A stretch of DNA of 64,000 bases from a virus. The notes below the pieces were generated by a model. It saw only the letters and a program-made list of their open reading frames with translations, had not been told where the DNA came from and made no database searches. Shown here one piece after another: positions 16,020 through 57,015 of the stretch. Location: IMG/VR virus record IMGVR_UViG_3300048580_000994, positions 1 to 64,000 of that record; one strand, given 5' to 3'. The position numbers and the translations under genes are program-made. How positions within the stretch are numbered: the stretch's first letter is position 1; every line of letters starts with the position of its first letter.

Positions 16020-16099
16020 CTCCCCAACGACTAATGGCAGGTCAATAGGCTTTCAACCTATGGTTCAACACCAAGTCGGTTCGATTCCGTCTGGGGGGA
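16020..16099 (+). tRNA. tRNA-Glu(TTC) with extended variable arm
   Basis: ATAGG-CTTTCAA-CCTAT; GGT-TCAAC-ACC arm. Confidence 0.7.
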
Positions 16100-16112
16100 C
16101 TTAACGAATAAT

Positions 16113-16797: not shown

Positions 16798-16889
16798 GGA
16801 CTCTAGGGAACTCTTGGTTTGTTCCAACGGGCTTTTAACCCGTCTTGCTTAACGCAATTGGCCAGTTCGATTCTAGGCAGAGTCTACCA
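16798..16889 (+). tRNA. tRNA-Lys(TTT) with long variable arm, encoded CCA
   Basis: ACGGG-CTTTTAA-CCCGT; TTGC-TTAAC-GCAA arm. Confidence 0.7.
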
Positions 16890-18242: not shown

Positions 18243-18331
18243 TCCTGTCGGCGTGGCTAGGTGAAACGCATGGACTGTTAATCCATTGGCTCGTAGGGAT
18301 ACGGGGCGAGGTTCGAATCCTCGGACAGGAG
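18243..18331 (+). tRNA. tRNA-Asn(GTT) with long variable arm
   Basis: ATGGA-CTGTTAA-TCCAT; CTCGTA-GGGA-TACGGG arm; G73. Confidence 0.8.
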
Positions 18332-18380
18332 CGGAATATACGGTTGAAAGTGACGATAAGAATGGGAACTTTCAAAAAAT

Positions 18381-21463: not shown

Positions 21464-21549
21464 TCCGGGGTCGTCTAATTTGGTAGGACACCTGACTTTG
21501 AATCAGGGAGATTAACATCTCTGTGCAGGTTCGACTCCTGCTCCCGGAT
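21464..21549 (+). tRNA. tRNA-Gln(TTG) with long variable arm
   Basis: CCTGA-CTTTGAA-TCAGG; GAGAT-TAAC-ATCTC arm. Confidence 0.8.
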
Positions 21550-21609
21550 CAAAAACAATAAGCGGTTGTAGGTGTAGACGTGTTAGATAGGAACCTTCAT
21601 TTTTATTAT

Positions 21610-24274: not shown

Positions 24275-24359
24275 GCGGGTGTCGCATAGCGGCTATTGCG
24301 CTTGCTTGCCAAGCAAGAGACCCTAAAGGTCATCACGGATTCGAGTTCCGTCACCCGCT
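24275..24359 (+). tRNA. tRNA-Gly(GCC) with long variable arm
   Basis: CTTGC-TTGCCAA-GCAAG; GACC-CTAAA-GGTC arm. Confidence 0.8.
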
Positions 24360-24381
24360 CCTAATAATATTTAAAGTTTGA

Positions 24382-28795: not shown

Positions 28796-29023
28796 ATGAA
28801 CATTCATGTTATTGCGAAGAGCGCCAAGCAGAACCCCATCACTGAATGGGACGTTAGGATTGTTGGAAGCAATGAAGGAGAGCCTCTTGCCACCATTCGC
28901 AAGACTGATGAGGGGATTTTCATTCTTGAAGGTTTCGCTGAAGTGAAGGTTGGCAATAGTCTCAATGAAGTTAGGGACGAAGCCCAGTTTATTCTTGATA
29001 AGATGAGTGTGTTGATTAATTAA
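28796..29023 (+). CDS. Hypothetical early protein
   Basis: TTGACA..TATACT promoter, AGGAG RBS, ATG 28796. Confidence 0.6.
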   Translation: MNIHVIAKSAKQNPITEWDVRIVGSNEGEPLATIRKTDEGIFILEGFAEVKVGNSLNEVRDEAQFILDKMSVLIN

Positions 29024-29031
29024 AAGGTTAT

Positions 29032-29112
29032 GCCGGAGTGATGTAATGGTAGCCTTGACGGTTTTAGAAACCGTTGTCGAAAGACGTGCAGGTTCAAGTC
29101 CTGTCTCCGGTA
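29032..29112 (+). tRNA. tRNA-Leu(TAG)
   Basis: ACGGT-TTTAGAA-ACCGT; GTC-GAAA-GAC arm. Confidence 0.9.
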
Positions 29113-29113
29113 C

Positions 29114-30283
29114 TTATTTTTTGTGTCTTGTCATTCCTCGCCAGAAACCTTCTGGTATTGTATCGTTATGATTTAATCTTGTATTAATTATTCCATTGGT
29201 TATATAAATTTTTCCAGACATAGATGCACTTATTTTTTCTTTGTGTTCTTGGGTTTTTGATAAATGTTTGGATGTTATTACTATTGGTTGGATATTATTT
29301 TTATCCCAAGTTTGAATTTTTTTTATTAATTCTTCGATGGACATTCCGATTCCAGTACCTTTAGTGATATTATCTAAATTGGATAATAATTGACAATTCG
29401 CTGGGTGTGATATAATTTTTGGGTCAATATTATTTCTCCAGCCATATTCGACTGATATTATATGGTCTCTACAAACACCTTGTTTGTTATTAGTTGAATT
29501 GTAGAACCCATATTTTAATAATAAATCATAGCCTTGTATATTTGGGTATAAGAAAACATCGAATAAAAATTTACATTCTTTTTTATAGATTTTTTTCTTA
29601 TCTGTCATTTTTGTACCAGATTGTATTCTGTAATTTTGGTTTGCTATGGTTAATGTTCTTAAATTAATTCCTATTATTTTTAAAAACATTCCAAAATCAC
29701 TATATTGGATTTTTAGATAGTTTTTAATTTCTTTTGCAGACATTTTTTCATTTGTGTATAGTCTATCTAATTCTTTTATTGAATTATTAATGTTTATTTG
29801 TGTTTGTTGATTGCCTAATTGAAAATTAAATATATTAGCTAATTTTTTTGCAATCGGGAGTTTTGTTGGGTTATCCCACCCTGTGGCTGGTTTTAATTTA
29901 GGATGGTATATATTGCCTGTGATTGGGGAATATTTAATTTTGGTATGTTGGTATTTGTTTTTTATTTTAATTGGGTTTTGTTTATTAATTTTTAATTTTT
30001 CAGATATTTGTTTTTTTGCGGTTTCAGGCATTGCCCACCCGGTTTCTTTTCGTTTTTTATTATTATATTTAGCAGAACAAGAACTACTACAAAAATTGTT
30101 TGATTTATTATCATATTTTATCAAAATTCCACAATATAGACATTTTTTTGGGTTTTGGTTATATGTTTTGATGTTTTCATTTTTGGTATGATCGCCATAA
30201 CATTTTGGTGAACAAAAAGTTGATGTTGTTTTTGCTGGTATAAATTCTTTTTTACATTCTGGGCATATAGCAGTTTTTTTCAT
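29114..30283 (-). CDS. Zn-ribbon + HNH-like endonuclease (HPANC family) with NUMOD-like tail
   Basis: RDHIIS..HPANC..N; EHKEKIS..ITNG..GFWRG; start re-set to 30283/30289. Confidence 0.75.
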   Translation of the reverse strand: MKKTAICPECKKEFIPAKTTSTFCSPKCYGDHTKNENIKTYNQNPKKCLYCGILIKYDNKSNNFCSSSCSAKYNNKKRKETGWAMPETAKKQISEKLKINKQNPIKIKNKYQHTKIKYSPITGNIYHPKLKPATGWDNPTKLPIAKKLANIFNFQLGNQQTQININNSIKELDRLYTNEKMSAKEIKNYLKIQYSDFGMFLKIIGINLRTLTIANQNYRIQSGTKMTDKKKIYKKECKFLFDVFLYPNIQGYDLLLKYGFYNSTNNKQGVCRDHIISVEYGWRNNIDPKIISHPANCQLLSNLDNITKGTGIGMSIEELIKKIQTWDKNNIQPIVITSKHLSKTQEHKEKISASMSGKIYITNGIINTRLNHNDTIPEGFWRGMTRHKK

Positions 30284-30306
30284 TTGCATTTTCTCCGAAT
30301 AAAGTA

Positions 30307-30397
30307 TATAAATAAAAGGAGTGGGACAAGCCCTTCTCCGATGGGTTTCCAATACTTCCGACGGTGTTGGATACCACTACTATTTATATTATTTATC
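30307..30397 (+). ncRNA. Nuclease-associated three-way-junction sRNA element
   Basis: Loop TTCTCCGA equals RBS region 30291-30298. Confidence 0.75.
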
Positions 30398-30431
30398 ATT
30401 TTAGTTGTAATTGTCAATATTTAATTTTTAT

Positions 30432-30507
30432 GGGTGTGTGAAGGGAATTTGGTATACCTTGTGTTCTTAGAAATCACAGTTTGCAGGTTCGATGCCTGTC
30501 GCACCCA
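30432..30507 (+). tRNA. tRNA with TAG anticodon but short variable loop
   Basis: GTGTT-CTTAGAA-ATCAC; 5-nt variable loop. Confidence 0.7.
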
Positions 30508-30522
30508 CTAAAATGTTTTTAT

Positions 30523-30596
30523 GGTCTTATAGTGAAATTGGATATAACATCAGTCTACGAAACTGAAGATGGTGGGTTCAAATCCTCCTAAGACCG
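30523..30596 (+). tRNA. tRNA-Arg(ACG)
   Basis: TCAGT-CTACGAA-ACTGA. Confidence 0.8.
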
Positions 30597-30606
30597 CTTA
30601 TATTAT

Positions 30607-30676
30607 GGCTGGGCTGCAAGGTGCAGGGCTGTCTCTCATAAGGACGGATGCGTGGATTCGATTTCCATACCAGCCA
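30607..30676 (+). tRNA. tRNA-Met/Ile2(CAT)
   Basis: TGTCT-CTCATAA-GGACG. Confidence 0.7.
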
Positions 30677-30692
30677 CTACTAAAAAGTTTTT

Positions 30693-30794
30693 GAGCCGTT
30701 TATAAAACGTTATCTTTTTTTGTCAAAAAGACCTGTCAGTTCGACTCTGGCGATGGGCGGATTCCCGGTTTACATGTTTTATTACCATTTGTTC
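30693..30794 (+). ncRNA. Permutation-clamp element enclosing partial tRNA(GTC) 3' half
   Basis: GAGC-CGTT..TTATC..ACCATTT-GTTC; T arm GTCAG-TTCGACT-CTGGC inside. Confidence 0.6.
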
Positions 30795-30801
30795 AAAAAA
30801 T

Positions 30802-30887
30802 GCGGGTAGCAGACATCTGGGGGTGTCACCGGTCTTCCAAACCGGCTACTGTAAAAGGTATTTTGGATTCGATTTCCACTACCCGCT
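30802..30887 (+). tRNA. tRNA-Gly(TCC) with long variable arm
   Basis: CCGGT-CTTCCAA-ACCGG; TACTGTAAAAGGTA arm. Confidence 0.7.
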
Positions 30888-30895
30888 CTAAATTT

Positions 30896-31016
30896 GTGCC
30901 GAATAAGGAAGATTATCTCAAAACTGTGTGTTGTGATTTTCGAATGTCACCATCTTTTCGAAGATGTAGCTCAATGGTAGAGCAATAGTCAAAAACACTT
31001 CTTTAACACCTTGCAT
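30896..31016 (+). ncRNA. Permutation-clamp element enclosing permuted tRNA-like RNA with UUCG-capped acceptor
   Basis: T arm, CATCTT-TTCG-AAGATG, then D arm GCTC-AATGGTA-GAGC and ATAGT (pairs with ACTGT). Confidence 0.7.
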
Positions 31017-31030
31017 AAATTTAAAATTTA

Positions 31031-31163
31031 AGAGCCGTATGAAAAATGTTATCCTGTTAAGATCGAAGTCGTGAGTTCGATTCTCACTTACCCCGCTAAA
31101 AATATATTATGGGGTAATAACTCAGTGGTAGAGTGCGTAAAGTGTTTTTCAACCATTTGCTCT
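31031..31163 (+). tRNA. Circularly permuted tRNA-Asn(GTT) inside clamp element (3' half 31051-31095, 5' half 31111-31137)
   Basis: Joining gives 72-nt cloverleaf: GGGGTAA/TTACCCC, ACTC/GAGT, CGATC-CTGTTAA-GATCG, GTGAG-TTCGATT-CTCAC, G73. Confidence 0.8.
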
Positions 31164-31168
31164 TATAT

Positions 31169-31241
31169 CACCCTATCGTATAATTGGATAGTACCACACA
31201 CTCTCAATGTGTAAATACGGGATCATAGCCCGTTAGGGTGA
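31169..31241 (+). tRNA. tRNA-Glu(CTC)
   Basis: ACACA-CTCTCAA-TGTGT. Confidence 0.75.
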
Positions 31242-31379
31242 CGAAATCGTTATAGGGAACAACAACCTTTCGCAAGAATGGGTTGCCCTATGACGTAATA
31301 GGTCAACGACGACCAAGTTCAAGTGTTTATCGTGCTTTGGAAAATCCCACTATACCGGTTGTGTGGGAACGATTATTTT

Positions 31380-31452
31380 TGCCCCTTGGCGCAACTGGTA
31401 GCGCAGCGCACTCTGAATGCGAAGGTTCCAATTTCGAATATTGGAGGGGCAG
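31380..31452 (+). tRNA. tRNA-Gln(CTG)
   Basis: CGCA-CTCTGAA-TGCG. Confidence 0.85.
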
Positions 31453-31458
31453 CTAAAA

Positions 31459-31526
31459 TAAGCCGAAGGTAAATGGTTATCGCAAACATCAACTTTGAAA
31501 AAACATCATTCACCAACCCTTGCTTA
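31459..31526 (+). ncRNA. Permutation-clamp element with short insert
   Basis: AGC-CGAA-GGTAAATGG-TTATC..TCATTCACC-AACCCTT-GCT. Confidence 0.6.
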
Positions 31527-32564
31527 TTTTATTATTTTTTGTTTTGATAGAATTATATATCCTTTTATAGCTAATTTATCATAGCTTATCTTTGTAAAAA
31601 TATTATGATTTTTTAGGAATTCTCTCATATTATTTGTTGTTATAATTGATTTGTCAGGTAATTGAATTTTATACAGGAATTGTGGGTTAGGTTTTCTGGT
31701 TGTTGGTGATATATAATTTGGATTTTGTTGTTTAAGAAATTCTCTGGATTCTTTGGGTGTTCTTATTGATATATTTAATAATCTTAATAATTTATGCAAA
31801 CCACCAGTGTTTTTATGATTAACTAACCTACTAAGTTCTATAGAACTATATTTATTATATAAATTTTTGGCATAGTTTTTACATAATTCCCAATCAGTAA
31901 TAAAGTTTGGTGTGCCTAAATTTGCCAGATTCAAATTAAAATATTTGTTTAATCCTGGTAATGCTTGTTTACTCATATCTATTTTGCATATTTGGCATAG
32001 TGTTTTTGATTTATGTCTTGTGCCGCAAAATGGACAGATCGTTAATTTTAATTTTTTTTCTTCTAATGATAATTTTGGTTGATAACCGTTTTTTGGCCCA
32101 TACCATCCTTGTCCTATATATTCTTCTATTAATGTTTTTGGGACTTGTTTTTGTAAGTTTATTATCCAAGAATGTGTGACCCAGCACATTCCATATCTTG
32201 GGTTTTTGCTACCTGTAAATTGTTGCATTGTTTTGCTCATGTTTTTTCTGGCATATTCATATAAATGGGAATTAAAATATCTATGATTATTTACAGTTGT
32301 TTTCATCATATTAAAAGCTCTGACCATACTATACCAATTCTCTGTATTAATTGGTAACATTTTACAAAGAAGATAGTGGCATATAAAATGTTCTCTGGCA
32401 GTTAATAGAACTAAATTTTCTTTGGTGTTATCCCCTTTCAATGATTTTGGTAATATATGGTGTTTTTCATAATATTGGGTTTTGGATTTAACCCTTGGTT
32501 GTGATTTGGCATTAGTAATAATATTATAATACCAGTTGTAGTATTTATTTTTTATAAAAATCAT
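31524..32564 (-). CDS. HNH homing endonuclease (MIFIKNKYY family)
   Basis: EKHHILPKSLKG..NLVLLTAREHFICH. Confidence 0.85.
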   Translation of the reverse strand: MIFIKNKYYNWYYNIITNAKSQPRVKSKTQYYEKHHILPKSLKGDNTKENLVLLTAREHFICHYLLCKMLPINTENWYSMVRAFNMMKTTVNNHRYFNSHLYEYARKNMSKTMQQFTGSKNPRYGMCWVTHSWIINLQKQVPKTLIEEYIGQGWYGPKNGYQPKLSLEEKKLKLTICPFCGTRHKSKTLCQICKIDMSKQALPGLNKYFNLNLANLGTPNFITDWELCKNYAKNLYNKYSSIELSRLVNHKNTGGLHKLLRLLNISIRTPKESREFLKQQNPNYISPTTRKPNPQFLYKIQLPDKSIITTNNMREFLKNHNIFTKISYDKLAIKGYIILSKQKIIK

Positions 32565-32588
32565 TTTGACTTATCTCCAGTCTAAAGT

Positions 32589-32674
32589 TATAAATAGATG
32601 AGCGGGACAAGCCCTACTCCAGTTGGGTTTCAATTATCGTCAAATAATTGATACCGCTCCTAATCTTATTTATC
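32589..32674 (+). ncRNA. Nuclease-associated three-way-junction sRNA element
   Basis: AGCGG/CCGCT compensatory stem; loop CTCCAGT equals RBS region 32575-32581. Confidence 0.75.
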
Positions 32675-32728
32675 TTTTTGTTTCAGAATTGCGTATTTTA
32701 TTTTTTTACCAATAAAGGAGGGACTATC

Positions 32729-32953
32729 ATGACCAATACACATACACAATGCGAGCTAAGACGTGGAAATTTCACACAAGTTGCTTGGATACCAAGCGAA
32801 TATGCTACAGTCGGGAAGTATCTCAAATTGAAATATAATGGTACTTGGAACGATGGATGGAAAGTGGAACAATTGGGTTCATCCCAAGACAGTGACTTTA
32901 CCAGAGAACGTTCACAAGATTATAAAAATATGAGAAAGATGACCGATATCTAG
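32729..32953 (+). CDS. Conserved small phage protein
   Basis: GGAGG RBS; QCELRR..VAWIP..AxVGK..W; hairpin terminator follows. Confidence 0.65.
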   Translation: MTNTHTQCELRRGNFTQVAWIPSEYATVGKYLKLKYNGTWNDGWKVEQLGSSQDSDFTRERSQDYKNMRKMTDI

Positions 32954-33132
32954 GATATCGGTCTTTTTTTATGACCAAAATTACAATTTTTAATTGTGGT
33001 TTGATAGTGTTGGAAATTCTAAGAATTTCTGTAACCATTAAAAACTATCACAACATTGCACCAATGGTCCAGTTGACGGGCATTGTTAGGAAACGTGCGA
33101 ATCGTTCTTGGTGTACAACATGGAGAAATATC

Positions 33133-34672: not shown

Positions 34673-34792
34673 GCCGGATTAGCAAAGCGGTCGAATGCAC
34701 CGGTTTTGTTAAGCACAGAGGGCGTGGTAATTCACGATGTGTGCTTTACAAACCGGTATCCCACAACGCAGGTTCGAATCCTGTGTCCGGCA
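34673..34792 (+). tRNA. tRNA-Thr(TGT) with 40-nt anticodon-loop intron (~34710-34749)
   Basis: CCGGT-TTTGT[intron]AA-ACCGG; intron folds AAGCACA/TGTGCTT. Confidence 0.75.
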
Positions 34793-38502: not shown

Positions 38503-38684
38503 AGAAAAATTTAAATATTGAAAAGCACCCTTGTGGTGCTTTTTTTGTGAGTAATTTCTGAGTATAAAAATATATTATCTGAGTGTTGTGGAGATAATAA
38601 ATTTGCATTGGTGTGCTCTGAGTGGTATATTGGTGTTATAGAGTGAAGTTTTGCACTCACAACCATTATGGATAGGAGATTGCT

Positions 38685-39296: not shown

Positions 39297-39456
39297 AATA
39301 TTAAAAAAAGCACCCTTGTGGTGCTTTTTTTGTGAGCAATTTTTAATCCTGAAAAAAAGTTAAAAAGAGTCGAAAAAGGTCTTGCAATAATTTCTAAACC
39401 TGCTATTATGATAATAACAGATGGATAGTCCAAATGTTCCAAAAGGAGATTATATT

Positions 39457-40438: not shown

Positions 40439-40509
40439 ATATTAAAAAAGAGCACCCTTGTGGTGCTTTTTTTCTTGATTAAAAGTATAAATATGATAGT
40501 ATAAAGAAT

Positions 40510-41455: not shown

Positions 41456-41950
41456 ATGCGTTTAAATGATTTATCGGAAATTAAAATTTATTCCTTACAA
41501 CCTGTTGATTTTTCACCAGAACAATTGGATGAAATTTGTGACCTTATCTGTACTGGTGGTGAAGTGACAAAAGTAGGATTGGAGAAAAGAATTCGCCAAG
41601 CCAAATTAATCGCAGTTGCTGAAAAAGATGGTAGATTTGTTGCTTGTTCATCCATAAAAGTCCCAGACCCAATGTATAGAGCTAAAATTATACAAAGGGC
41701 AGGTATAATATTTAAACCTCAACTTGAATTAGGATGGGGTTTTACCCTACCAGAATATCGCAACCAAAAACTTGGGACAAAACTGAAAGAAGAATTGTTT
41801 AAAAACGTCCCCCCAACAAATGTTTATGCCACTGTTAGATTGAAGAATAAACCAGCCATCAAGGGCATCGAAAAATTTGGGTTTAAGGCTGTTGGAACAC
41901 CATATCAGGGAATGAGTGGGGATTTGATCTCCATATTTTTAGTCAGATAA
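41456..41950 (+). CDS. GNAT acetyltransferase with MRLND N-terminus
   Basis: TLPEYRNQKLG, N.PAIK..EKFGF; GATAAATA upstream. Confidence 0.85.
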   Translation: MRLNDLSEIKIYSLQPVDFSPEQLDEICDLICTGGEVTKVGLEKRIRQAKLIAVAEKDGRFVACSSIKVPDPMYRAKIIQRAGIIFKPQLELGWGFTLPEYRNQKLGTKLKEELFKNVPPTNVYATVRLKNKPAIKGIEKFGFKAVGTPYQGMSGDLISIFLVR

Positions 41951-42063
41951 AGGGCCGAATAAAATTGATTATCGGATAATAGAATTGTTAATGCAGTTTT
42001 TAGATGGTTCAAGCCCATCAATCAATCGCAAGATTGAAAAATTCAATTTTAAAACCTTGCCCT
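41951..42063 (+). ncRNA. Permutation-clamp element enclosing tRNA-like insert with GCAA-capped acceptor
   Basis: AGGGC-CGAA-TAAAATTGA-TTATC..GATGG-TTCAAGC-CCATC..TCAATC-GCAA-GATTGA..TCAATTTTA-AAACCTT-GCCCT. Confidence 0.65.
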
Positions 42064-42103
42064 TTTGATTTTTTGTGATATGATGAATAAAAGGAGAATA
42101 ATA

Positions 42104-42337
42104 ATGGATGCAACATTAGACATACCACTTCAAGTTACAGTTCGTTTGGGTAAAACAAAAATGTCCATCAAACAACTTTTGAAAATGGGTAGGGGTGCTG
42201 TATTGGAATTGGATAATTTAGTCACAGACCCAATTGAACTATTAGTCAATGGAAAGGTTGTTGCATTGGGTGAAGTTGAAATTGTTGGTGATAATTATGG
42301 GATTAAGATAACTGAAGTTTTTGGGAAAACAGCTTGA
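42104..42337 (+). CDS. fliN: Flagellar motor switch FliN (SpoA domain)
   Basis: DIPLQVTVRLGKTKMSIKQLL..GAVLELD..LLVNGK..GEV..YGIKITE. Confidence 0.9.
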   Translation: MDATLDIPLQVTVRLGKTKMSIKQLLKMGRGAVLELDNLVTDPIELLVNGKVVALGEVEIVGDNYGIKITEVFGKTA

Positions 42338-42535: not shown

Positions 42536-42868
42536 ATGAGTATTCAAGAAGCATATCAGAAAGCAAAACCAATATATGAAAAATCTGAAAAAGTTCGCAA
42601 TATTAAAATTAAAGATCAATTGGATGATTTGGTATTTCTAATCCCAATTTCTGGTACTGCAGTTTCATCATCATATTACAATTGTATTAATCATTGGTGT
42701 AAGAAAAATTGTCAAGATATTTGGACTATTGATTCTGGTACGCCAATAACAAATGTCATATATAGGGAAAACAGAGAACTATATGACAAAGGATATGATA
42801 ATAATCATATTATAATAATCTTTGAAAATCCCAGTGATGCAATGTTATTCAAAATGAGATGGGGATAA
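42536..42868 (+). CDS. Hypothetical protein, FKxxW family
   Basis: WC..NC..W; FENPSDAMLFKMRWG. Confidence 0.7.
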   Translation: MSIQEAYQKAKPIYEKSEKVRNIKIKDQLDDLVFLIPISGTAVSSSYYNCINHWCKKNCQDIWTIDSGTPITNVIYRENRELYDKGYDNNHIIIIFENPSDAMLFKMRWG

Positions 42869-43204
42869 TGATGTTATTTGTTCTTCAAAAACCAAGACAA
42901 GAAATAAATGAAATAATATTATGGTTAGGGAAGAATCTTGGGGAAGATTGGAAAATTGCGAACACGTCAAACCTATTTTGGAATGGCGAACTATATCTTG
43001 GGTTCGTTCTTGCCCCCAATACCTGGTAAAGCCATACATGATAAACTTTGTCATTTACGAGAAATTAATCAACCAATATTAAATTCAAATGTTAAAACGC
43101 TTGTCACGTTTGAAATCCCCAACGACAAAGCTTTATTATTTAAATTAAAATTCTGTTGACAAATTCTTTATATCTGATATGATGGTTTTTTAGAAGGAGA
43201 AGCT

Positions 43205-43477
43205 ATGTTCTGTTATGATGAAAATCCAATCAGAGGTAAGAATTTTTCGATGCCCGCTTGTGATCCCCATACCCAATGGGAGAAACATTATCGCAACATG
43301 ATGTTTTTGGAATTTCTTGCGAAAAATCCGAAGGCGACTTTTGATGAAAAAAACCAAGCAGAGCGTGAATTGCTCATTGCCCATCGTAAATTGATTTGGT
43401 GGGAACGTTATCATGGGTTTTCGCATGAAATTGCTAGTACCATCGCTGGAAAGGTTAAAAAGGAGTGGGGAAAATGA
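43205..43477 (+). CDS. Conserved hypothetical protein
   Basis: AAGGAG RBS. Confidence 0.65.
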   Translation: MFCYDENPIRGKNFSMPACDPHTQWEKHYRNMMFLEFLAKNPKATFDEKNQAERELLIAHRKLIWWERYHGFSHEIASTIAGKVKKEWGK

Positions 43478-43868
43478 CAGATTCATTGTATGACCAAATA
43501 GAAAAACAATTAAATAACAAATACCCGAAACGTCTTTTTGGGATATTTGTCTTGATTTTGTGTGCCATTGGAATTTTCGCAATCGTTCAGCGCAACAACG
43601 TAATTAACATCAAAGAACGTTGTGTCCAAGAAAAATTGAATTATATTGAATGTAATACTGTTGTGAGACTTATGAAGCATGGCAATAGCTGGAACATTGA
43701 TGCTATGTCCTTTGAAGAATCGTTGTTGGTGATTAAAAAATGAAAATTAGAAATTCACTAAAATCAGCCAAGACGAGGGATAAAAATTGCAAAATCGTCA
43801 AACGTCGTGGTAAAGTATATGTCATAAACAAACAAAACCCAAGGTTCAAGGCAAGACAATAGGAGTAT

Positions 43869-44249
43869 ATGATGAAAACGCCAAAAGTTAGGGGTACTGA
43901 TTGTAGAAAACAAAAACGCTATGTGAATGGACTTTTTAAAAAACTCAAAGTTGGTGGTTATTATACCAATTGCAACTATCATCCAGTTAGGTTGACTGAA
44001 AAAGTTTGGGAATGGCGTTTTGGTGCTGAAATTTCAGGTATTGATTTGATTACCAATGGACCAACGTCATGTTCAATGGTTCACTGTGGACCAACACCAA
44101 TTTCTGAAAAATATGCCAACGAATTGGTTGAAACTTGGAAAGAAGGTGGTGACAAAGCCCTTGCGATTAAAGTTGGTGGATGGACACCAGAGGCGTATGA
44201 TGAGTTTGAAAAAACTTGGAGAACCCCTGTGGAGGAAGGACGATTTTAA
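43869..44249 (+). CDS. Hypothetical protein
   Basis: AGGAG RBS. Confidence 0.6.
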   Translation: MMKTPKVRGTDCRKQKRYVNGLFKKLKVGGYYTNCNYHPVRLTEKVWEWRFGAEISGIDLITNGPTSCSMVHCGPTPISEKYANELVETWKEGGDKALAIKVGGWTPEAYDEFEKTWRTPVEEGRF

Positions 44250-44569
44250 TGATTCAAGAAGCCTTCAAAATCGTTGAACTGGAAAACGGGGAAATCAAAA
44301 CCCTATTCCATGGCATCAACAACTCCCGAACAATGCCGACGGGGGTTTGGTTAGAAGCAGACGAGAAAATTGTTCGTGACGGTTCTGGGGATCGCTATTA
44401 TATTTCTGGTTGGCACACTTTACCAACGTATGAGGATTGTGTAAAATATATGTCCAGATTTAAAAACAGGACAGACATCCTTACCATCGTCCCATGCGAA
44501 ATTAAAGACATTAGACTAAAGGACCATTCCAAATCACCAGTGAATTTGTCCAAGTATATAAAATTTTAG
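44249..44569 (+). CDS. Hypothetical protein
   Basis: TAATG coupling; KTLFHG..W..SGWH. Confidence 0.6.
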   Translation: MIQEAFKIVELENGEIKTLFHGINNSRTMPTGVWLEADEKIVRDGSGDRYYISGWHTLPTYEDCVKYMSRFKNRTDILTIVPCEIKDIRLKDHSKSPVNLSKYIKF

Positions 44570-45075
44570 GAGATTGATATGCCAAGAATGTTAGACGAAG
44601 AAACATCAGCGAAAATGATTTGTCCCTACCTTCAAGATAAATGCCACACCCGCACTTGTATGGCTTGGCGTTTTGAAGACAAACCAATTCCAGAAGACGA
44701 GAAGAACCCTAAATTTAGAGGGTATTGTGTTATAATGGAAAAATAAGAGTTGAATTCATTCTCATGTTGCCCAGCAGTGCAACATAAATGATAAAATCGC
44801 TAATTTAATATGCTCTATTGCGCTTTCAAGTATTAAATGTGCGTAAACCGGAATTCGTAAAATATTAAGGAAATTTTATCAACTGCACCATCTTATCCTT
44901 GACACCAACTAAATATCTTGCTAATATATCCTGATGACGTTAGAAAGGATTGTATGATGATTATCACCAGTGGGGTCATTTTTTTGATTTGGCTTCTTAG
45001 CTTATTTTCCAGTAAAGCACCAAGTGGATTCATTTTCGTCATTTGGTTCTTTAGTCTTTTTTGTCTGTGAATCAA

Positions 45076-45903
45076 ATGAAACAAAAAACATTAACCAAAA
45101 CAATATCGTTCTCAGGTGTAGGACTTCACAATGGTAAACAGGTTAATGTTTTACTCTTACCAGCCCCACTAAACACCGGAATTATTTTTCAGCGAACAGA
45201 CGTTGGGGGAAATAATATCATCCCAGCCTTGTGGAACCTTGTCCACACAACCAACCTAAACACTTGTTTGAAAAATGACAACGACGTTACCATTTCCACA
45301 ATTGAACACTTGATGGCAGCATTATCAGCCTCTAACGTCACCAATTGTCATATCCAAGTCAACGGACCAGAAATTCCAATTTTGGATGGCTCTGCAGATA
45401 TTTTTTACCAGACAATCAAACCCGATACCACAGAACAAAAACTGAACCAAAAATCCATCAAGATTTTGAAACCAATAACCACCCAAACAGTGTCTTTGAT
45501 TCCGGCTGACGAATTTTCCATTGAACTTTTTATTGATTTCCCAGCCAAAATCATAGGGACACAATCATTCCACTATCGAGACAACTTCCCTGAAATCTCC
45601 CAAGCCAGAACCTTTGGGTTTGGGAACGAGATTGACTACCTTCGGAAAAATAACCTTGCCTTGGGTGGGAGTTTGGATAACGCTATCGTTGTGGCTAACG
45701 ATGGGGAAACGATTTTGAACGATGGTGGGCTGAAATACAATGATGAATTCGTCCGTCATAAAGTCATCGATGCTATCGGGGATTTGTATCTCGCTGGTTA
45801 CCCAATCATTGGTAAATTCATTGGGGTAGGTTCTGGACATTCAATGAATAACGCCCTATTGCGGGAACTTTTCAAAAACCAAGATTGTTGGGAGATGGTA
45901 TGA
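45076..45903 (+). CDS. lpxC: UDP-3-O-acyl-GlcNAc deacetylase
   Basis: QKTL..GVGLH, TIEHLMAAL, EIPILDGSA, ARTFGF, GGSLDNA, EFVRHKVIDAIGDL, SGH. Confidence 0.95.
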   Translation: MKQKTLTKTISFSGVGLHNGKQVNVLLLPAPLNTGIIFQRTDVGGNNIIPALWNLVHTTNLNTCLKNDNDVTISTIEHLMAALSASNVTNCHIQVNGPEIPILDGSADIFYQTIKPDTTEQKLNQKSIKILKPITTQTVSLIPADEFSIELFIDFPAKIIGTQSFHYRDNFPEISQARTFGFGNEIDYLRKNNLALGGSLDNAIVVANDGETILNDGGLKYNDEFVRHKVIDAIGDLYLAGYPIIGKFIGVGSGHSMNNALLRELFKNQDCWEMV

Positions 45904-46340
45904 AACCTGAAATAACATATTTTCCCAGTGGTCCAAAACATCAAGAAACTTGGTATTTGGATGATTATGACACTGTGCATCGTATTGGTGGACCTGCAAA
46001 TCAACAATGGTACACAAATGGGTTATTATTTAGCGAGGCATGGATGGAATATGGTTTGCTTCATCGTGTTGATGGACCTGCAATAAGATTTTGGTTTAGA
46101 AATGGGCAGTTGCGTTCGATTAGATGGGCTATCAATGGAAAAACACATCGTATTGGTGGTCCAGCATTTCAAACTTGGGATGAAAATTGGCAAAAACAAA
46201 AAGAACAATGGTGGGTGAATGACATTGAAAAAACCAATGAAATCCTTCAATGGATAGAAAAAGATAATATTGAGTTGGATGAAAATCACAGCATCGTCAA
46301 GAAGAACGATTTAATGATTTTTAAATTGAAATTTGGCTGA
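45900..46340 (+). CDS. HRxxGPA-repeat (MORN-like) protein with FKLKF tail
   Basis: Three HRIGGPA/HRVDGPA repeats. Confidence 0.75.
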   Translation: MKPEITYFPSGPKHQETWYLDDYDTVHRIGGPANQQWYTNGLLFSEAWMEYGLLHRVDGPAIRFWFRNGQLRSIRWAINGKTHRIGGPAFQTWDENWQKQKEQWWVNDIEKTNEILQWIEKDNIELDENHSIVKKNDLMIFKLKFG

Positions 46341-55599: not shown

Positions 55600-57015
55600 A
55601 TGGATATTATTTTAAAAAAAGCCAGATTTATATCATTTTTTATTATTGCCAGTATAACGTTGGTAATAGTTATTAGTTTTTATTTCATGACCATGAATAA
55701 TATTGACCAAGATCGTTTGGTTAAGATGACTAATATTTATGGTCGAGGGGAAAGTGTTATAAAAGTATTAGATAGACATGTTCATAACTCAATCGAAGAT
55801 GTTTATTGGGCATTGCGAGTATATGAAAATAAATGGGTTGACACACCAGATGATGAATTTGTTGTTTGGGTTAGTAAGAATACTGTGAACACTTTTTATG
55901 CATCTAAGATAATAATCAATAGTGTTAGTGGTGTCTCTTATAGATATGAAGACAATAAAATAACCAAACAAAAAAGTGATAATAATTTTAATCAAAGTAG
56001 TATTATTGTTGGAACTAATTTGGTTATGGAAAATTCAAATGATGGGTTGGAAATAATTTTTAAATATACTATTAAGGGGAAGGGTGTTATTAATATTCAT
56101 GTACCACAAAATTATTTGGTTGATATTTTTTCAAATCTTAGGCATCATTGGGAAATTTTGATAATAGATGTTACAAATAATATATATTCTGATTTAGTTA
56201 ATGAAATTGATAAATCAATTTCTTCGTTTGATAAAAATAAAATATTAAATGATTATAAATGTAATACCAAACTGCTAATAAAAAATGAAAATGATGATTT
56301 TTCGTTTCTTGGTAATTGTTATAAATCTGTTTATTATAATTTATATTATGTGGTATTATATGATTATACTTATGAAATGTCTGGCTTTGTTGATAGAAGT
56401 AAGAAAACATTATCATCATTTTCATTGTTTGTTTTTATGATATTATTAATTGGTATAGCGTTATTAATAGTTTCTGATAAACAAATTAGAGTATATGTTG
56501 AGTTAAAACAAATGAAAGACGAGTTTGAGGAATTGTCGAGTATTGATGAATTAACTTCTGTTACCAATCGCAGGGCTGTTATGAAAAGGTTGGTTCAAGA
56601 AATGACCAGAATGTCTCGTCATGGTCGCCCACTATCCATTATGTCATTTGATATAGATTTTTTCAAAAAAATCAATGATACTTATGGGCATAATGTTGGA
56701 GATATAGTTTTGAAGAATTTGGTGATTGAGGTACAAAAATGCCTTCGTCAAACAGATTTGCTTGGTAGAATGGGTGGTGAAGAATTTTTGATATTGTTGG
56801 GCGATACCAAATTAGATGGTGCTACTATATTGGCTGAACGTATTCGTGAAACTATACAAAACATACAGATAGTTAAAGACATTAACATCACCATTAGTGT
56901 TGGTGTTGGTGAATTTAAAAAGGGAGAGATTACCAGTCAATTATTAGCACGTGTTGATTTGGCATTATATAGAGCTAAAAATGAGGGAAGAAATAAGGTT
57001 TGTATATCCATTTAA
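55600..57015 (+). CDS. Membrane sensor diguanylate cyclase (GGEEF)
   Basis: Two TM helices; DELT..NRR, DIDFFKKINDTYGH, RxxD I-site, GRMGGEEF. Confidence 0.93.
   Translation: MDIILKKARFISFFIIASITLVIVISFYFMTMNNIDQDRLVKMTNIYGRGESVIKVLDRHVHNSIEDVYWALRVYENKWVDTPDDEFVVWVSKNTVNTFYASKIIINSVSGVSYRYEDNKITKQKSDNNFNQSSIIVGTNLVMENSNDGLEIIFKYTIKGKGVINIHVPQNYLVDIFSNLRHHWEILIIDVTNNIYSDLVNEIDKSISSFDKNKILNDYKCNTKLLIKNENDDFSFLGNCYKSVYYNLYYVVLYDYTYEMSGFVDRSKKTLSSFSLFVFMILLIGIALLIVSDKQIRVYVELKQMKDEFEELSSIDELTSVTNRRAVMKRLVQEMTRMSRHGRPLSIMSFDIDFFKKINDTYGHNVGDIVLKNLVIEVQKCLRQTDLLGRMGGEEFLILLGDTKLDGATILAERIRETIQNIQIVKDINITISVGVGEFKKGEITSQLLARVDLALYRAKNEGRNKVCISI

What the first reader, a model, noticed from the sequence alone, without database searches (positions are those of the whole stretch)
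30896..31016. Permuted tRNA-like RNAs whose acceptor stem is sealed by a tetraloop - possible circular tRNA decoys
Seen: in this copy the T arm is followed by CATCTT-TTCG-AAGATG and then a textbook D arm (GCTC-AATGGTA-GAGC) and ATAGT, which pairs with ACTGT at the start of the insert. The 41951 copy has TCAATC-GCAA-GATTGA in the same place, and the 30693 copy has GGG-CGGATT-CCC. The anticodon at 30916-30922 reads TCA or CAA depending on the unknown junction. Inference: with no linker to process, the product would be a closed, non-chargeable tRNA mimic that could titrate host anticodon nucleases or tRNA-modifying toxins. Decay of once-functional genes is the alternative.
Basis: partly seen in the sequence, partly recalled or inferred. 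Interest (0 to 1): 0.72.

Follow-up and report, generated by a model that had tools for sequence, protein, structure and literature searches.

The report
Phage Y RNA with tRNA-like head
This stretch is a gene for a small phage RNA of the known Y RNA (YrlA) type, a tRNA look-alike with a sealed acceptor end sitting on a stem that docks to the Ro60 ring protein, so it is neither a circular tRNA nor a decaying tRNA gene.

Summary
At 30893-31019 (+) the order is T arm, a 6-bp acceptor-like stem closed by UUCG, a textbook D arm, and a 5-bp stem (ACTGT/ATAGT) closing the tRNA-like core.

The two ends need no joining. They pair into a conserved two-helix handle (P1, internal loop with GCCGAA, P2, then UUAUC). 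Five copies in the 82-kb phage contig share this handle, and it covaries (94% of cells paired, 12 of 17 pairs changed on both sides, 0 of 500 shuffles as good).

This is the published YrlA design. Wang et al. [quoted passage not shown] Rfam YrlA matches the copy at 32.8 bits, below its cut-off of 69.

A pattern taken from two copies found 23 stretches in 22 IMG/VR phage records. Eighteen of the 22 encode a Ro60 (TROVE) protein. In 13 the RNA lies 204-4433 nt from that gene on the same strand. In five phages of 376-480 kb it lies 86-293 kb away; four of the five loci scanned for tRNAs hold tRNA genes.

Sealed 4-nt loops occur in 13 of 25 family members. No Ro60 gene is in this contig, which is about 33% complete.

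The scan has noted YrlA-like phage RNAs on other DNA before. Verdict: new member of a known kind.

The parts
30893..31019 (+). Copy B, the finding: whole Y RNA-like (YrlA-type) gene, 127 nt
   Evidence: MFE fold; R1 94 bits; R2 80.5 bits, E 6.6e-17; Rfam YrlA 32.8 bits, E 4.6e-5, for 30903-31009
30893..30899 (+). P1 5' strand (TTTGTGC), pairs with 31013-31019 (GCATAAA)
   Evidence: 7 of 7 pairs in all 5 copies; 5 of 7 pairs change on both sides
30898..30903 (+). GCCGAA: the GNCGAA part of the proposed Ro60-binding motif, spanning the end of P1 and the 5' side of the internal loop
   Evidence: Motif GNCGAAN0-1G defined by Chen et al. 2014. GCCG is invariant in 5 of 5 own copies and 25 of 25 family members
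30904..30911 (+). P2 5' strand (TAAGGAAG), pairs with 30998-31005 (CTTCTTTA)
   Evidence: helix 2: 90% of cells paired, 7 of 10 pairs changed on both sides
30912..30917 (+). ATTATC: conserved UUAUC (the YUAY of YrlA)
   Evidence: TTATC invariant in 5 of 5 copies; YUAY described in Chen 2014; the UA of it makes the kink in the YrlA crystal structure
30923..30927 (+). ACTGT: 3' strand of the anticodon-stem analogue, pairs with ATAGT at 30985-30989
   Evidence: Sequence; aligned to the 4-bp closing stem of the Rfam YrlA model
30928..30932 (+). GTGTT: 5-nt variable-loop analogue. Its last U can form the Levitt pair with A15 of the D loop
   Evidence: Sequence. Copy C has G15 and C48 instead, the same alternation reported for YrlA
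30933..30950 (+). T arm: GTGAT - TTTCGAAT - GTCAC (8-nt loop, one U more than canonical)
30951..30966 (+). Acceptor-stem analogue (AS): CATCTT-TTCG-AAGATG, 6 bp closed by a UUCG tetraloop
30967..30984 (+). TA (U8/A9 analogue), D arm GCTC-AATGGTA-GAGC, then A
   Evidence: It nearly matches the Rfam YrlA consensus GUAGCUCAauuuGGUAGAGC
30990..30997 (+). CAAAAACA: 3' strand of the internal loop between core and handle (the family's AAAC motif)
   Evidence: One RNA-library contig lacks one A here
31006..31012 (+). ACACCTT: 3' side of the handle's internal loop (family consensus ACnnCUU before the P1 G)
30690..30799 (+). Copy A: same handle; hairpin with a UUGUCAA-type loop, a T arm, a 3-bp hairpin, no D arm
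   Evidence: 71.7 bits; 39.9 bits
31029..31167 (+). Copy C: same handle; full tRNA-like head with a 7-bp acceptor stem closed by a 16-nt AU-rich loop
   Evidence: YrlA 34.3 bits; 94.7 bits
31457..31530 (+). Copy D: the handle alone (exact GCCGAAG motif), no tRNA-like insert
   Evidence: 66.4 bits. Not found by R2
41949..42067 (+). Copy E: same handle; T arm plus a 6-bp stem closed by GCAA, no D arm
   Evidence: z = -3.07; 98.1 bits; 42.6 bits

Best explanation
Copy B is a gene for a linear small non-coding RNA of the Y RNA class, YrlA type.

Inferred steps: it is transcribed on the + strand together with the surrounding phage tRNA genes and cut out of that transcript.

Shown by sequence, fold and covariation: its two ends pair into a handle (7-bp P1, an internal loop carrying GCCGAA on the 5' side, 8-bp P2, then UUAUC). 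This corresponds to the Ro60-binding module of Y RNAs. The middle folds into a tRNA core (T arm, D arm, 5-nt variable loop, 5-bp anticodon-stem analogue). The acceptor stem of that core is a closed 6-bp hairpin, so the RNA has no CCA end and cannot be charged.

Inferred by analogy: the handle docks on a Ro60/Rsr ring protein. That protein is most likely encoded in the unsequenced two-thirds of this phage genome, or else in the host. The tRNA-like head is the effector end that recruits or blocks another factor. In the two studied cases the factor is a host exoribonuclease such as PNPase (D. radiodurans and Thermus phage phiLo). A phage Ro60-like protein has also been reported to counter a host defence (Bas63 gp130 against Ppl).

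The five paralogues with different heads would give one Ro60 several alternative adaptors.
For: (1) Each of the five copies, folded on its own, gives the same P1 / internal loop / P2 frame.

(2) On the MAFFT alignment of the five copies, the 17 handle pairs are 94.1% paired and 12 of 17 changed on both sides. None of 500 shuffles reached this, and slid registers gave 40-52%.

(3) Rfam YrlA (RF02553) is the only non-tRNA family that matches. B scores 32.8 bits (E 4.6e-5) and C 34.3 bits (E 1.7e-5), over the full model length and in the order T arm, AS, D arm.

(4) A pattern taken from B and C found 23 stretches in 22 IMG/VR records. TROVE (Ro60) is present in 18 of the 22, and in 15 of the 16 that are at least 90% complete. 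In 13 records the RNA lies 204-4433 nt from the TROVE match on the same strand. This is the Chen et al. criterion of within 4 kb on the same strand, which 12 of the 13 meet (the other lies at 4433 nt).

(5) RNAalifold on an unsupervised alignment of B, C and 23 foreign members recovers P1, P2, T, AS and D. It predicts 29 pairs, 26 with compensatory change.

(6) A model built only from 13 TROVE-adjacent foreign RNAs finds B at 80.5 bits and C at 94.7 bits in the 64-kb window. The best other match apart from copies E (42.6 bits) and A (39.9 bits) is 21.9 bits.

(7) Those TROVE-adjacent RNAs score 35.5-42.4 bits on Rfam YrlA, the same range as B and C.

(8) Published descriptions fit. S. [quoted passage not shown] Y RNAs with Ro60 are known in mycobacteriophages, CcrColossus, phage G and phiLo.

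(9) RNA-library contigs from two studies cover 30934-31096 and 30923-31074 at 99% identity or more.
Against: No TROVE, DUF2828 or RtcB gene lies in the 82,429-bp contig, so the partner is not shown for this phage.

Rfam YrlA scores are less than half the gathering score (32.8 against 69).

The exact GNCGAAN0-1G motif is present in only 1 of 5 copies (D). B has GCCGAA followed by UA.

B's T loop has 8 nt, which is unique among the 25 aligned members.

The foreign members were fished with a pattern derived from B and C. About 44 of the 80.5 bits therefore follow by construction, and the set is not an unbiased sample.

My handle model found nothing in five jumbo phage genomes chosen by topoisomerase similarity, although two of them have TROVE.

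The RNA-library contigs have low depth and may be DNA carry-over. No binding, end-mapping or modification data exist.
Confidence: 0.8

Rival explanations
1. Ro60-independent tRNA decoy. The sealed tRNA-like head titrates host enzymes or toxins that recognise the tRNA elbow or core. The handle serves only to protect the ends from exonucleases.
For: No Ro60 gene in the 82-kb contig. The RNA sits in a tRNA array of about 40 genes, the kind of array thought to offset host attacks on tRNAs (passage on jumbo-phage tRNAs and RNA repair). Chen et al. themselves consider that the tRNA fold may protect the RNA or bind other tRNA-interacting factors.
Against: The handle carries the sequence signature of the Ro60 site (GCCGAA, UUAUC). 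The same handle lies next to TROVE genes in 13 phage records, and TROVE is present in 15 of 16 near-complete records. Copy D keeps the handle with no tRNA-like part at all, which a pure decoy would not need. B has no anticodon loop, so anticodon nucleases cannot be its target.
Confidence: 0.12
2. True permuted tRNA gene. The 3' half lies before the 5' half, the ends are joined into a circle, and the acceptor end is then opened to give a working tRNA. Permuted tRNA genes of this kind in red and green algae and some archaea are recalled from memory, not taken from a call.
For: The order T arm, acceptor, D arm is that of a permuted tRNA. Copy C has a 7-bp acceptor stem with a 16-nt loop that RNase P could open, as shown for M. 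smegmatis YrlA.
Against: In B the acceptor stem is 6 bp and closed by 4 nt, with no discriminator base or linker. The strands that would have to make the anticodon loop are 11 and 8 nt and are followed by two conserved helices. No bulge-helix-bulge is formed: the loops are 4 and 7 nt. One copy has no tRNA part. The family tracks Ro60 genes.
Confidence: 0.02
3. Decaying remnants of tRNA genes, or chance juxtaposition of a T arm and a D arm from tandem tRNAs.
For: B's 8-nt T loop and A-U-rich stems. Copies A and E lack a D arm. Tandem tRNAs are a known false positive for YrlA models (methods passage), and they are the next-best hits here (at most 21.9 bits).
Against: Compensatory changes occur in 26 of 29 pairs across phages. 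P1 and P2 are intact in all five copies. The U8/A9, G18G19, T-loop and Levitt-pair positions are intact in B. Contigs at 99% identity or more are present in other lake samples.
Confidence: 0.03
4. A new self-cleaving or circularising ribozyme, or a splicing signal ('clamp') flanking tRNA inserts. The first reader proposed this for the five-copy frame (note e1-6116253).
For: A conserved frame with invariant GCCG, UUAUC and UUG around variable inserts.
Against: The frame is explained by the Y RNA handle and co-occurs with Ro60 genes. No Rfam ribozyme family matches at E up to 10 in 30600-31600.
Confidence: 0.02

Closest known systems
YrlA of Salmonella Typhimurium (Rfam RF02553; Chen et al. 2014, PMC4201824; Wang et al. 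2018, bioRxiv 10.1101/312249)
   Same: Same topology: 5' handle strand, YUAY, variable region, T arm, closed acceptor-like stem-loop of 6 bp, UA, D arm, 3' handle strand. No CCA end and no anticodon loop. The D arm sequence is almost the same, and the Levitt pair is kept.
   Different: Scores only 32.8 bits against a cut-off of 69. [quoted passage not shown] No Ro60 gene within 4 kb. Embedded in a phage tRNA array. The T loop has one extra U.
YrlA of Mycobacterium smegmatis
   Same: A tRNA-like Y RNA. Its 7-bp acceptor stem lets RNase P cut it and CCA be added. Sister copy C (31029-31167), with 7 bp and a 16-nt loop, is of this design.
   Different: Copy B has 6 bp and a tetraloop, so by the published reasoning it should not be an RNase P substrate.
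Yrl1 and Yrl2 of Thermus phage phiLo with phage Ro60 (Hu et al. 2025, PMC12135203; passages read)
   Same: Phage-encoded Y RNA-like RNAs with a stem, a bulge carrying CGAA, and a second stem. More than one per phage. They bind phage Ro60 and host PNPase.
   Different: There the RNAs lie directly upstream of the Ro60 gene. Here no Ro60 gene is in the contig. I did not see whether Yrl1/2 have tRNA-like heads.
Animal Y RNAs and D. radiodurans Yrn1
   Same: Ends pair into a bulged helix whose 5' strand carries the Ro60 contact (GGUCCGA in Xenopus, as quoted). Several paralogues per genome.
   Different: Animal Y RNAs have no tRNA-like domain. Rfam Y_RNA gave no match at E up to 10 in 30600-31600.
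Permuted tRNA genes of algae and archaea (recalled, no call)
   Same: 3' half encoded before the 5' half.
   Different: Those are matured through a circular intermediate into working tRNAs. B has no linker, no restorable anticodon loop and no bulge-helix-bulge.

Membership tests
YrlA-type Y RNA | GNCGAAN0-1G motif near the 5' end (proposed Ro60 contact; Chen 2014) | tested here: inconclusive
   B has GCCGAA followed by UA, not G. The exact motif is in copy D only (1 of 5). GNCGAA is in 3 of 5 and GNCG in 5 of 5. TROVE-adjacent foreign members vary in the same way.
YrlA-type Y RNA | Conserved YUAY after the 5' handle strand | tested here: met
   UUAU(C) is invariant in 5 of 5 copies and 24 of 25 family members (one has UUACC).
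YrlA-type Y RNA | T-like and D-like stem-loops in the order T, AS stem-loop, D, with tRNA tertiary-contact nucleotides | tested here: met
   UA before the D stem, GG in the D loop, UUCGA in the T loop and an A15:U48 pair are all possible. Exception: an 8-nt T loop.
YrlA-type Y RNA | Closed acceptor-like stem (no free CCA end) and no anticodon loop | tested here: met
   6 bp plus UUCG, the same length as in the S. Typhimurium structure.
YrlA-type Y RNA | 5' and 3' ends pair into a stem that carries the Ro60 site | tested here: met
   P1 and P2, with covariation.
YrlA-type Y RNA | Encoded within about 4 kb of the Ro60/TROVE gene on the same strand | tested here: not met
   No TROVE match at E up to 1 in the 82,429-bp contig, which is about 33% complete. 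Family-level support: 13 of 22 foreign records have the RNA 204-4433 nt from TROVE on the same strand; 5 large phages have it 86-293 kb away.
YrlA-type Y RNA | Reaches the Rfam RF02553 gathering score (69 bits) | tested here: not met
   32.8 bits. TROVE-adjacent phage members score 35.5-42.4 bits, so the whole phage branch falls below the cut-off.
YrlA-type Y RNA | Bound by Ro60/Rsr; carries pseudouridine 55 and dihydrouridine | not testable with these tools
   Needs immunoprecipitation or gel-shift, and modification mapping.
Permuted tRNA gene (circular-intermediate type; features recalled, no call) | Joining the ends restores a 7-nt anticodon loop on a 5-bp stem | tested here: not met
   Beyond the 5-bp stem lie 11 nt and 8 nt of loop strands, then P2 and P1.
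Permuted tRNA gene (circular-intermediate type; features recalled, no call) | A linker between the acceptor 3' and 5' ends that processing enzymes remove | tested here: not met
   Only UUCG lies between the two strands of a 6-bp stem.
Permuted tRNA gene (circular-intermediate type; features recalled, no call) | Bulge-helix-bulge at the paired termini | tested here: not met
   The termini form a 7-bp helix, a 4-nt/7-nt internal loop and an 8-bp helix.

The most novel reading that the evidence does not exclude
Large phages keep sets of Y RNA paralogues inside their tRNA operons, far from the Ro60 gene. Each has a different tRNA-like head: sealed, RNase P-openable, T-arm only, or none. Some carry hairpins that copy particular anticodon loops. 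The heads would work as interchangeable adaptors or baits that steer one phage Ro60 onto host tRNA-directed defence nucleases or the host RNA decay machinery. On this reading the Ro60/Y RNA particle is a programmable phage counter-defence tied to the tRNA array.
Probability: 0.15. Interest if true: 0.6.

Novelty: new member of a known kind. Interest (0 to 1): 0.3.

Why it matters
It removes a tempting but wrong reading (circular or permuted tRNAs in a phage) and places the element in a class with known biochemistry.

It also adds two modest points that I did not find in the papers I could read. First, in the five phages of 376-480 kb examined here, Y RNA-like genes lie 86-293 kb from the Ro60 gene; tRNA genes were found in four of the five loci scanned. 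Second, one phage can carry five paralogues with different heads.

The published rule 'within 4 kb of Ro60' and the Rfam cut-off would both miss such genes, so phage Y RNAs are probably under-annotated.

Tried and rejected
Searches that found nothing useful:
- blastn of 29000-33000 against cultured phages gave only short tRNA or homing-endonuclease matches.
- The search for related loci with the two neighbouring proteins (41456-41950 and 29114-30352) found no relatives in IMG/VR.
- My handle model R1 found nothing at E up to 1 in five jumbo phage genomes picked by topoisomerase similarity: RsoM2USA, XacN1, LR745206, BUDD and SCTP-2. Two of them have TROVE.
- Around those two TROVE genes, neither Rfam YrlA (E up to 1) nor R1 with filters off gave a convincing Y RNA. 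The best was 13.8 bits, E 0.19, on the strand opposite the TROVE gene.

Context: Pfam scans of 40 ORFs showed homing endonucleases, a DNA methylase, LpxC, a GNAT, PRPP synthetase and type II topoisomerase, but no RNA repair or Ro60-like protein. No sigma-70-like promoter excess and no intrinsic terminator appeared in 30300-31700 (8 promoter-like sites against 4.7 +/- 2.3 expected, 0 terminators).

Script and lookup failures: my first script for parsing D arms had a faulty regular expression and printed 'None' for most rows. I replaced it with a column-based parse of alignment A3. Two reviews on bacterial Y RNAs (PMC10870794, PMC6047535) are not held.

Not in print, as far as searched: searches for 'Y RNA' + 'tRNA array' + 'phage' (1 paper, on mycobacteria; listing only) and 'TROVE' + 'jumbo phage' (8 papers; passages read in one of them, PMC7824862) gave no description of Y RNA genes dispersed in jumbo-phage tRNA arrays. 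The PhageMaP preprint only speculates that some annotated tRNAs next to Bas63 gp130 may be Y RNAs.

Parts of 30300-31700 without cover in the laid runs are not evidence of absence. One RNA-library contig (X17) joins 30424 to 30800 with 3 other letters between. That may be a strain lacking 375 bp, including copy A. It rests on a single contig at depth 3.4 and was not followed up.

Caveat on the TROVE association: 23 stretches in 22 records were examined. R1 matched 17 of the 23 loci at E up to 0.01. The six without an R1 match (L016, L019, L030, L031, L032, L034) were kept in the TROVE count. L031 (a 66-nt match in a complete 39.6-kb record without TROVE) is probably a chance match.
Full report
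**Setting.** The window is the first 64 kb of an 82,429-bp IMG/VR virus record, estimated about 33% complete.
- It encodes the two subunits of a T4-type topoisomerase II, many free-standing homing endonucleases (HNH, GIY-YIG, treble-clef types), a DNA methylase, LpxC and PRPP synthetase.
- It carries about 40 tRNA genes, all on the + strand.
- The nearest cultured phage by the topoisomerase medium subunit is the 344-kb Ralstonia phage RsoM2USA, at 43.8% identity.
- The DNA is held by lake-water metagenomes.
- It is therefore a fragment of a large, probably jumbo, phage of a Gram-negative freshwater host. The host type is an inference from LpxC.

**The observation.** Read from the sequence, copy B runs as follows.
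- P1 5' strand: 30893-30899.
- CGAA: 30900-30903.
- P2 5' strand: 30904-30911.
- AUUAUC: 30912-30917.
- UCAAA: 30918-30922.
- ACUGU: 30923-30927.
- GUGUU: 30928-30932.
- T arm GUGAU-UUUCGAAU-GUCAC: 30933-30950.
- CAUCUU-UUCG-AAGAUG: 30951-30966.
- UA: 30967-30968.
- D arm GCUC-AAUGGUA-GAGC: 30969-30983.
- A: 30984.
- AUAGU: 30985-30989.
- CAAAAACA: 30990-30997.
- P2 3' strand: 30998-31005.
- ACACCUU: 31006-31012.
- P1 3' strand: 31013-31019.

The minimum-free-energy fold shows the T, acceptor-like and D hairpins inside the two outer helices. The only blemish is an 8-nt T loop. ARAGORN does not call it a tRNA.

**A five-copy family with a common handle.** A motif search, and then a covariance model, found exactly five copies in the whole contig, all on the + strand: 30690-30799, 30893-31021, 31029-31167, 31457-31530 and 41949-42067.
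- Folded separately, each gives the same frame: a 7-bp outer helix, an internal loop with CG(A/U)(A/U) on the 5' side and A-C-C...U-U on the 3' side, an 8-10-bp second helix, then an invariant UUAUC.
- On the plain MAFFT alignment, 17 handle pairs are 94.1% paired.
- Twelve of the 17 pairs changed on both sides.
- None of 500 shuffles reached the observed values, and slid registers gave 40-52% pairing.
- The interiors differ between copies. B and C have a full T / acceptor / D set. A and E have a T arm and a short sealed hairpin but no D arm. D has no tRNA-like part.

The ends therefore do not need to be joined. They form a conserved structure of their own.

**Identification.** The handle resembles the Ro60-binding module of Y RNAs. 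I first recognised this from memory and then tested it.
- In an E-value scan of 30600-31600 against all Rfam families, the only non-tRNA family with a significant match was YrlA (RF02553). It matched B at 32.8 bits (E 4.6e-5) and C at 34.3 bits (E 1.7e-5). Both matches run end to end, with the T arm, AS hairpin, D arm and closing stem aligned. The gathering score is 69.
- Chen et al. 2014 (sections 5 and 6 and other passages read) define YrlA by four features: a GNCGAAN0-1G motif near the 5' end; a YUAY; nearly invariant T and D stem-loops with a variable 'AS' stem-loop between them; and location within 4 kb of the Ro60 gene on the same strand.
- Wang et al. 2018 (sections 5 and 7 read) solved the S. 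Typhimurium YrlA head. It has a 6-bp AS that is a closed loop, no anticodon loop, and a kink at the conserved UA.
- B keeps the tRNA tertiary-contact positions: UA before the D stem, GG in the D loop, UUCGA in the T loop, and an A15:U48 Levitt pair. Copy C has G15:C48 instead, the same alternation reported for YrlA.

**Independent test through other phages.** A pattern taken from B and C (GCCGWW, 9 nt, TTATC, a gap, TTCGA, a gap, GGTAGAG) matched 23 stretches in 22 IMG/VR records.
- The handle model matched 26 places in 17 of the 23 loci, often several per locus.
- On that model-fitted alignment the handle pairs are 93.1% paired, with 127 cells changed on both sides against 46 expected.
- A search of the 22 whole records for the TROVE domain found it in 18, and in 15 of the 16 records that are at least 90% complete.
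- From the coordinates, the RNA lies 204-4433 nt from the TROVE match on the same strand in 13 records, upstream in 12 of them.
- In the five largest phages (376-480 kb) it lies 86-293 kb away. There the handle model finds 1-4 copies, none near TROVE.
- Of the five loci from these large phages that I scanned for tRNAs, four hold tRNA genes on the same strand as the RNA: 32 in L023, 1-5 in L014, L015 and L021, and none in the 2.2-kb L020.
- The four records without TROVE are three fragments (15-40% complete) and one complete 39.6-kb record. The pattern match in that last record is short, is not confirmed by the model, and is probably chance.

**Family structure.** RNAalifold on an unsupervised MAFFT alignment of B, C and 23 foreign members predicts P1, P2, the T arm, the AS stem and the D arm. 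It gives 29 pairs, 26 with compensatory change.
- I built a second model from only the 13 foreign RNAs that lie next to a TROVE gene. It finds C at 94.7 bits, B at 80.5, E at 42.6 and A at 39.9 in the 64-kb window. It misses D. Its next hits, at 21.9 bits or less, include stretches that run across adjacent tRNA genes, a false positive type that Chen et al. describe.
- Caveat: those 13 were found with a pattern from B and C, so roughly 44 bits are shared by construction.
- The same TROVE-adjacent RNAs score 35.5-42.4 bits on Rfam YrlA. B and C are therefore typical members of a phage branch that the curated model sees only weakly.

**The sealed acceptor stem.** Among the 25 aligned members the AS loop is 4 nt in 13. 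Seven of these are GNRA; B's is UUCG. The loop is 5-12 nt or more in the other 12. Stems are mostly 7-8 bp. Both kinds occur within single phages.
- The tetraloop is thus a regular family trait, not a sign of decay or of a special circular product.
- By the published reasoning (7 bp needed for RNase P), B should stay closed. Sister copy C, with 7 bp and a 16-nt AU-rich loop, might be opened as M. smegmatis YrlA is.

**Expression.** Contigs from two metatranscriptome libraries of different studies cover 30934-31096 (no differences) and 30923-31074 (one A fewer in the loop at 30991). Both bridge B and C. This fits co-transcription with the array, but depth is low and DNA carry-over cannot be excluded. 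No promoter excess or terminator was found around the cluster.

**Mechanism.**
- Shown: the architecture, the covariation, and the family-level linkage to Ro60 genes.
- Inferred: B is cut from the tRNA-array transcript. Its handle binds a Ro60 ring encoded elsewhere in this phage or in the host. Its tRNA-like head engages another factor.
- Known precedents: Y RNA tethers Ro60 to PNPase in D. radiodurans (abstract). Thermus phage phiLo Ro60 with Yrl1/2 binds host PNPase and attenuates it (abstract and passages). The Ro60-like gp130 of phage Bas63 counters the Ppl defence, and its authors guess that neighbouring 'tRNA' genes may be Y RNAs (passage). Iyer et al. 2021 note TROVE proteins in a small subset of jumbo phages, among RNA repair systems (passage).
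- No TROVE, DUF2828 or RtcB gene is in this contig, so the partner remains a prediction for this phage.

**Verdict.**
- The 'closed, non-chargeable tRNA mimic' is right. 'Circular' and 'anticodon-nuclease decoy' are not supported, and neither is decay.
- The element is a new member of a known kind, the YrlA-type Y RNA.
- The modestly new aspects are five diversified paralogues and placement inside a tRNA array without a nearby Ro60 gene.
- Another agent's note on copy C (e1-6116272) reached the same class. I saw it after forming my reading and count it as a lead, not as support.
- The scan has reported YrlA-like phage RNAs on other DNA several times.

Noticed in passing
window 30802-30886 (+): A tRNA with an 8-9-bp acceptor stem and a long extra arm lies directly upstream of copy B. 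It reaches the Rfam tRNA-Sec cut-off (49.1 against 47 bits), but its anticodon loop reads UCC/CCA-like rather than UCA. ARAGORN does not call it.
   Followed up: no
window 30690-30799, 31029-31167, 41949-42067; also L018:4622-4754, L025:6088-6217, L020:1387-1515, L020:1627-1766: In many family members the stretch right after UUAUC forms a small hairpin whose 7-nt loop looks like a real anticodon loop. Examples: CUGUUAA (Asn-like) in copy C and L018, CUGUGAA (His-like) in L025 and L020, and UGUCAA (Asp-like) in copy A and L020. Several are GUN anticodons, the queuosine family. Copy B lacks this hairpin. Seen by eye in the printed sequences and not counted systematically.
   Followed up: partly
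window 34673-34792 (+): Rfam tRNA match spanning 120 nt (42.8 bits), that is, a tRNA gene with an insertion of about 50 nt.
   Followed up: no
window 16020-16100, 16798-16889, 18243-18332, 21464-21550, 24275-24361: ARAGORN calls tRNAs for Glu, Lys, Asn, Gln and Gly that are 81-92 nt long. These are unusual long extra arms for these identities.
   Followed up: no
window 42106-42300 (+), just after copy E: An ORF starting at about 42106 reads like a FliN/SpoA-type flagellar switch or type III secretion domain. This was recognised by eye from the translation, with no family search run. It is odd cargo for a phage.
   Followed up: no
window 38527-38545, 39312-39330, 40454-40472: The same hairpin GCACCCTTGTGGTGC followed by TTT recurs three times after + strand genes. 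It is a likely phage-specific terminator (seen in the output).
   Followed up: no
window 30424/30800: One RNA-library contig (run X17) joins 30424 to 30800 with three other letters between. It skips 375 bp that hold two tRNA genes called by Rfam, a further tRNA-like stretch seen by eye, and Y RNA copy A. This is possibly a strain variant of the array.
   Followed up: no
L027 7254-7478 (-) (record G013): A 165-kb phage that has Ro60, two Y RNA-like genes and about 35 tRNAs also carries a permuted tmRNA (Rfam RF04321, 71.4 bits), about 760 nt from the nearer Y RNA-like gene.
   Followed up: no
L012 (Ralstonia phage RsoM2USA, record 42769-46011): The closest cultured relative by topoisomerase has a weak TROVE-domain ORF (491 aa, 26.1 bits) with a tRNA gene directly upstream on the same strand. 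No recognisable Y RNA was found by Rfam or by my model.
   Followed up: partly
window 55600-57015 (+): A phage-encoded GGDEF diguanylate cyclase (147 bits), 471 aa.
   Followed up: no
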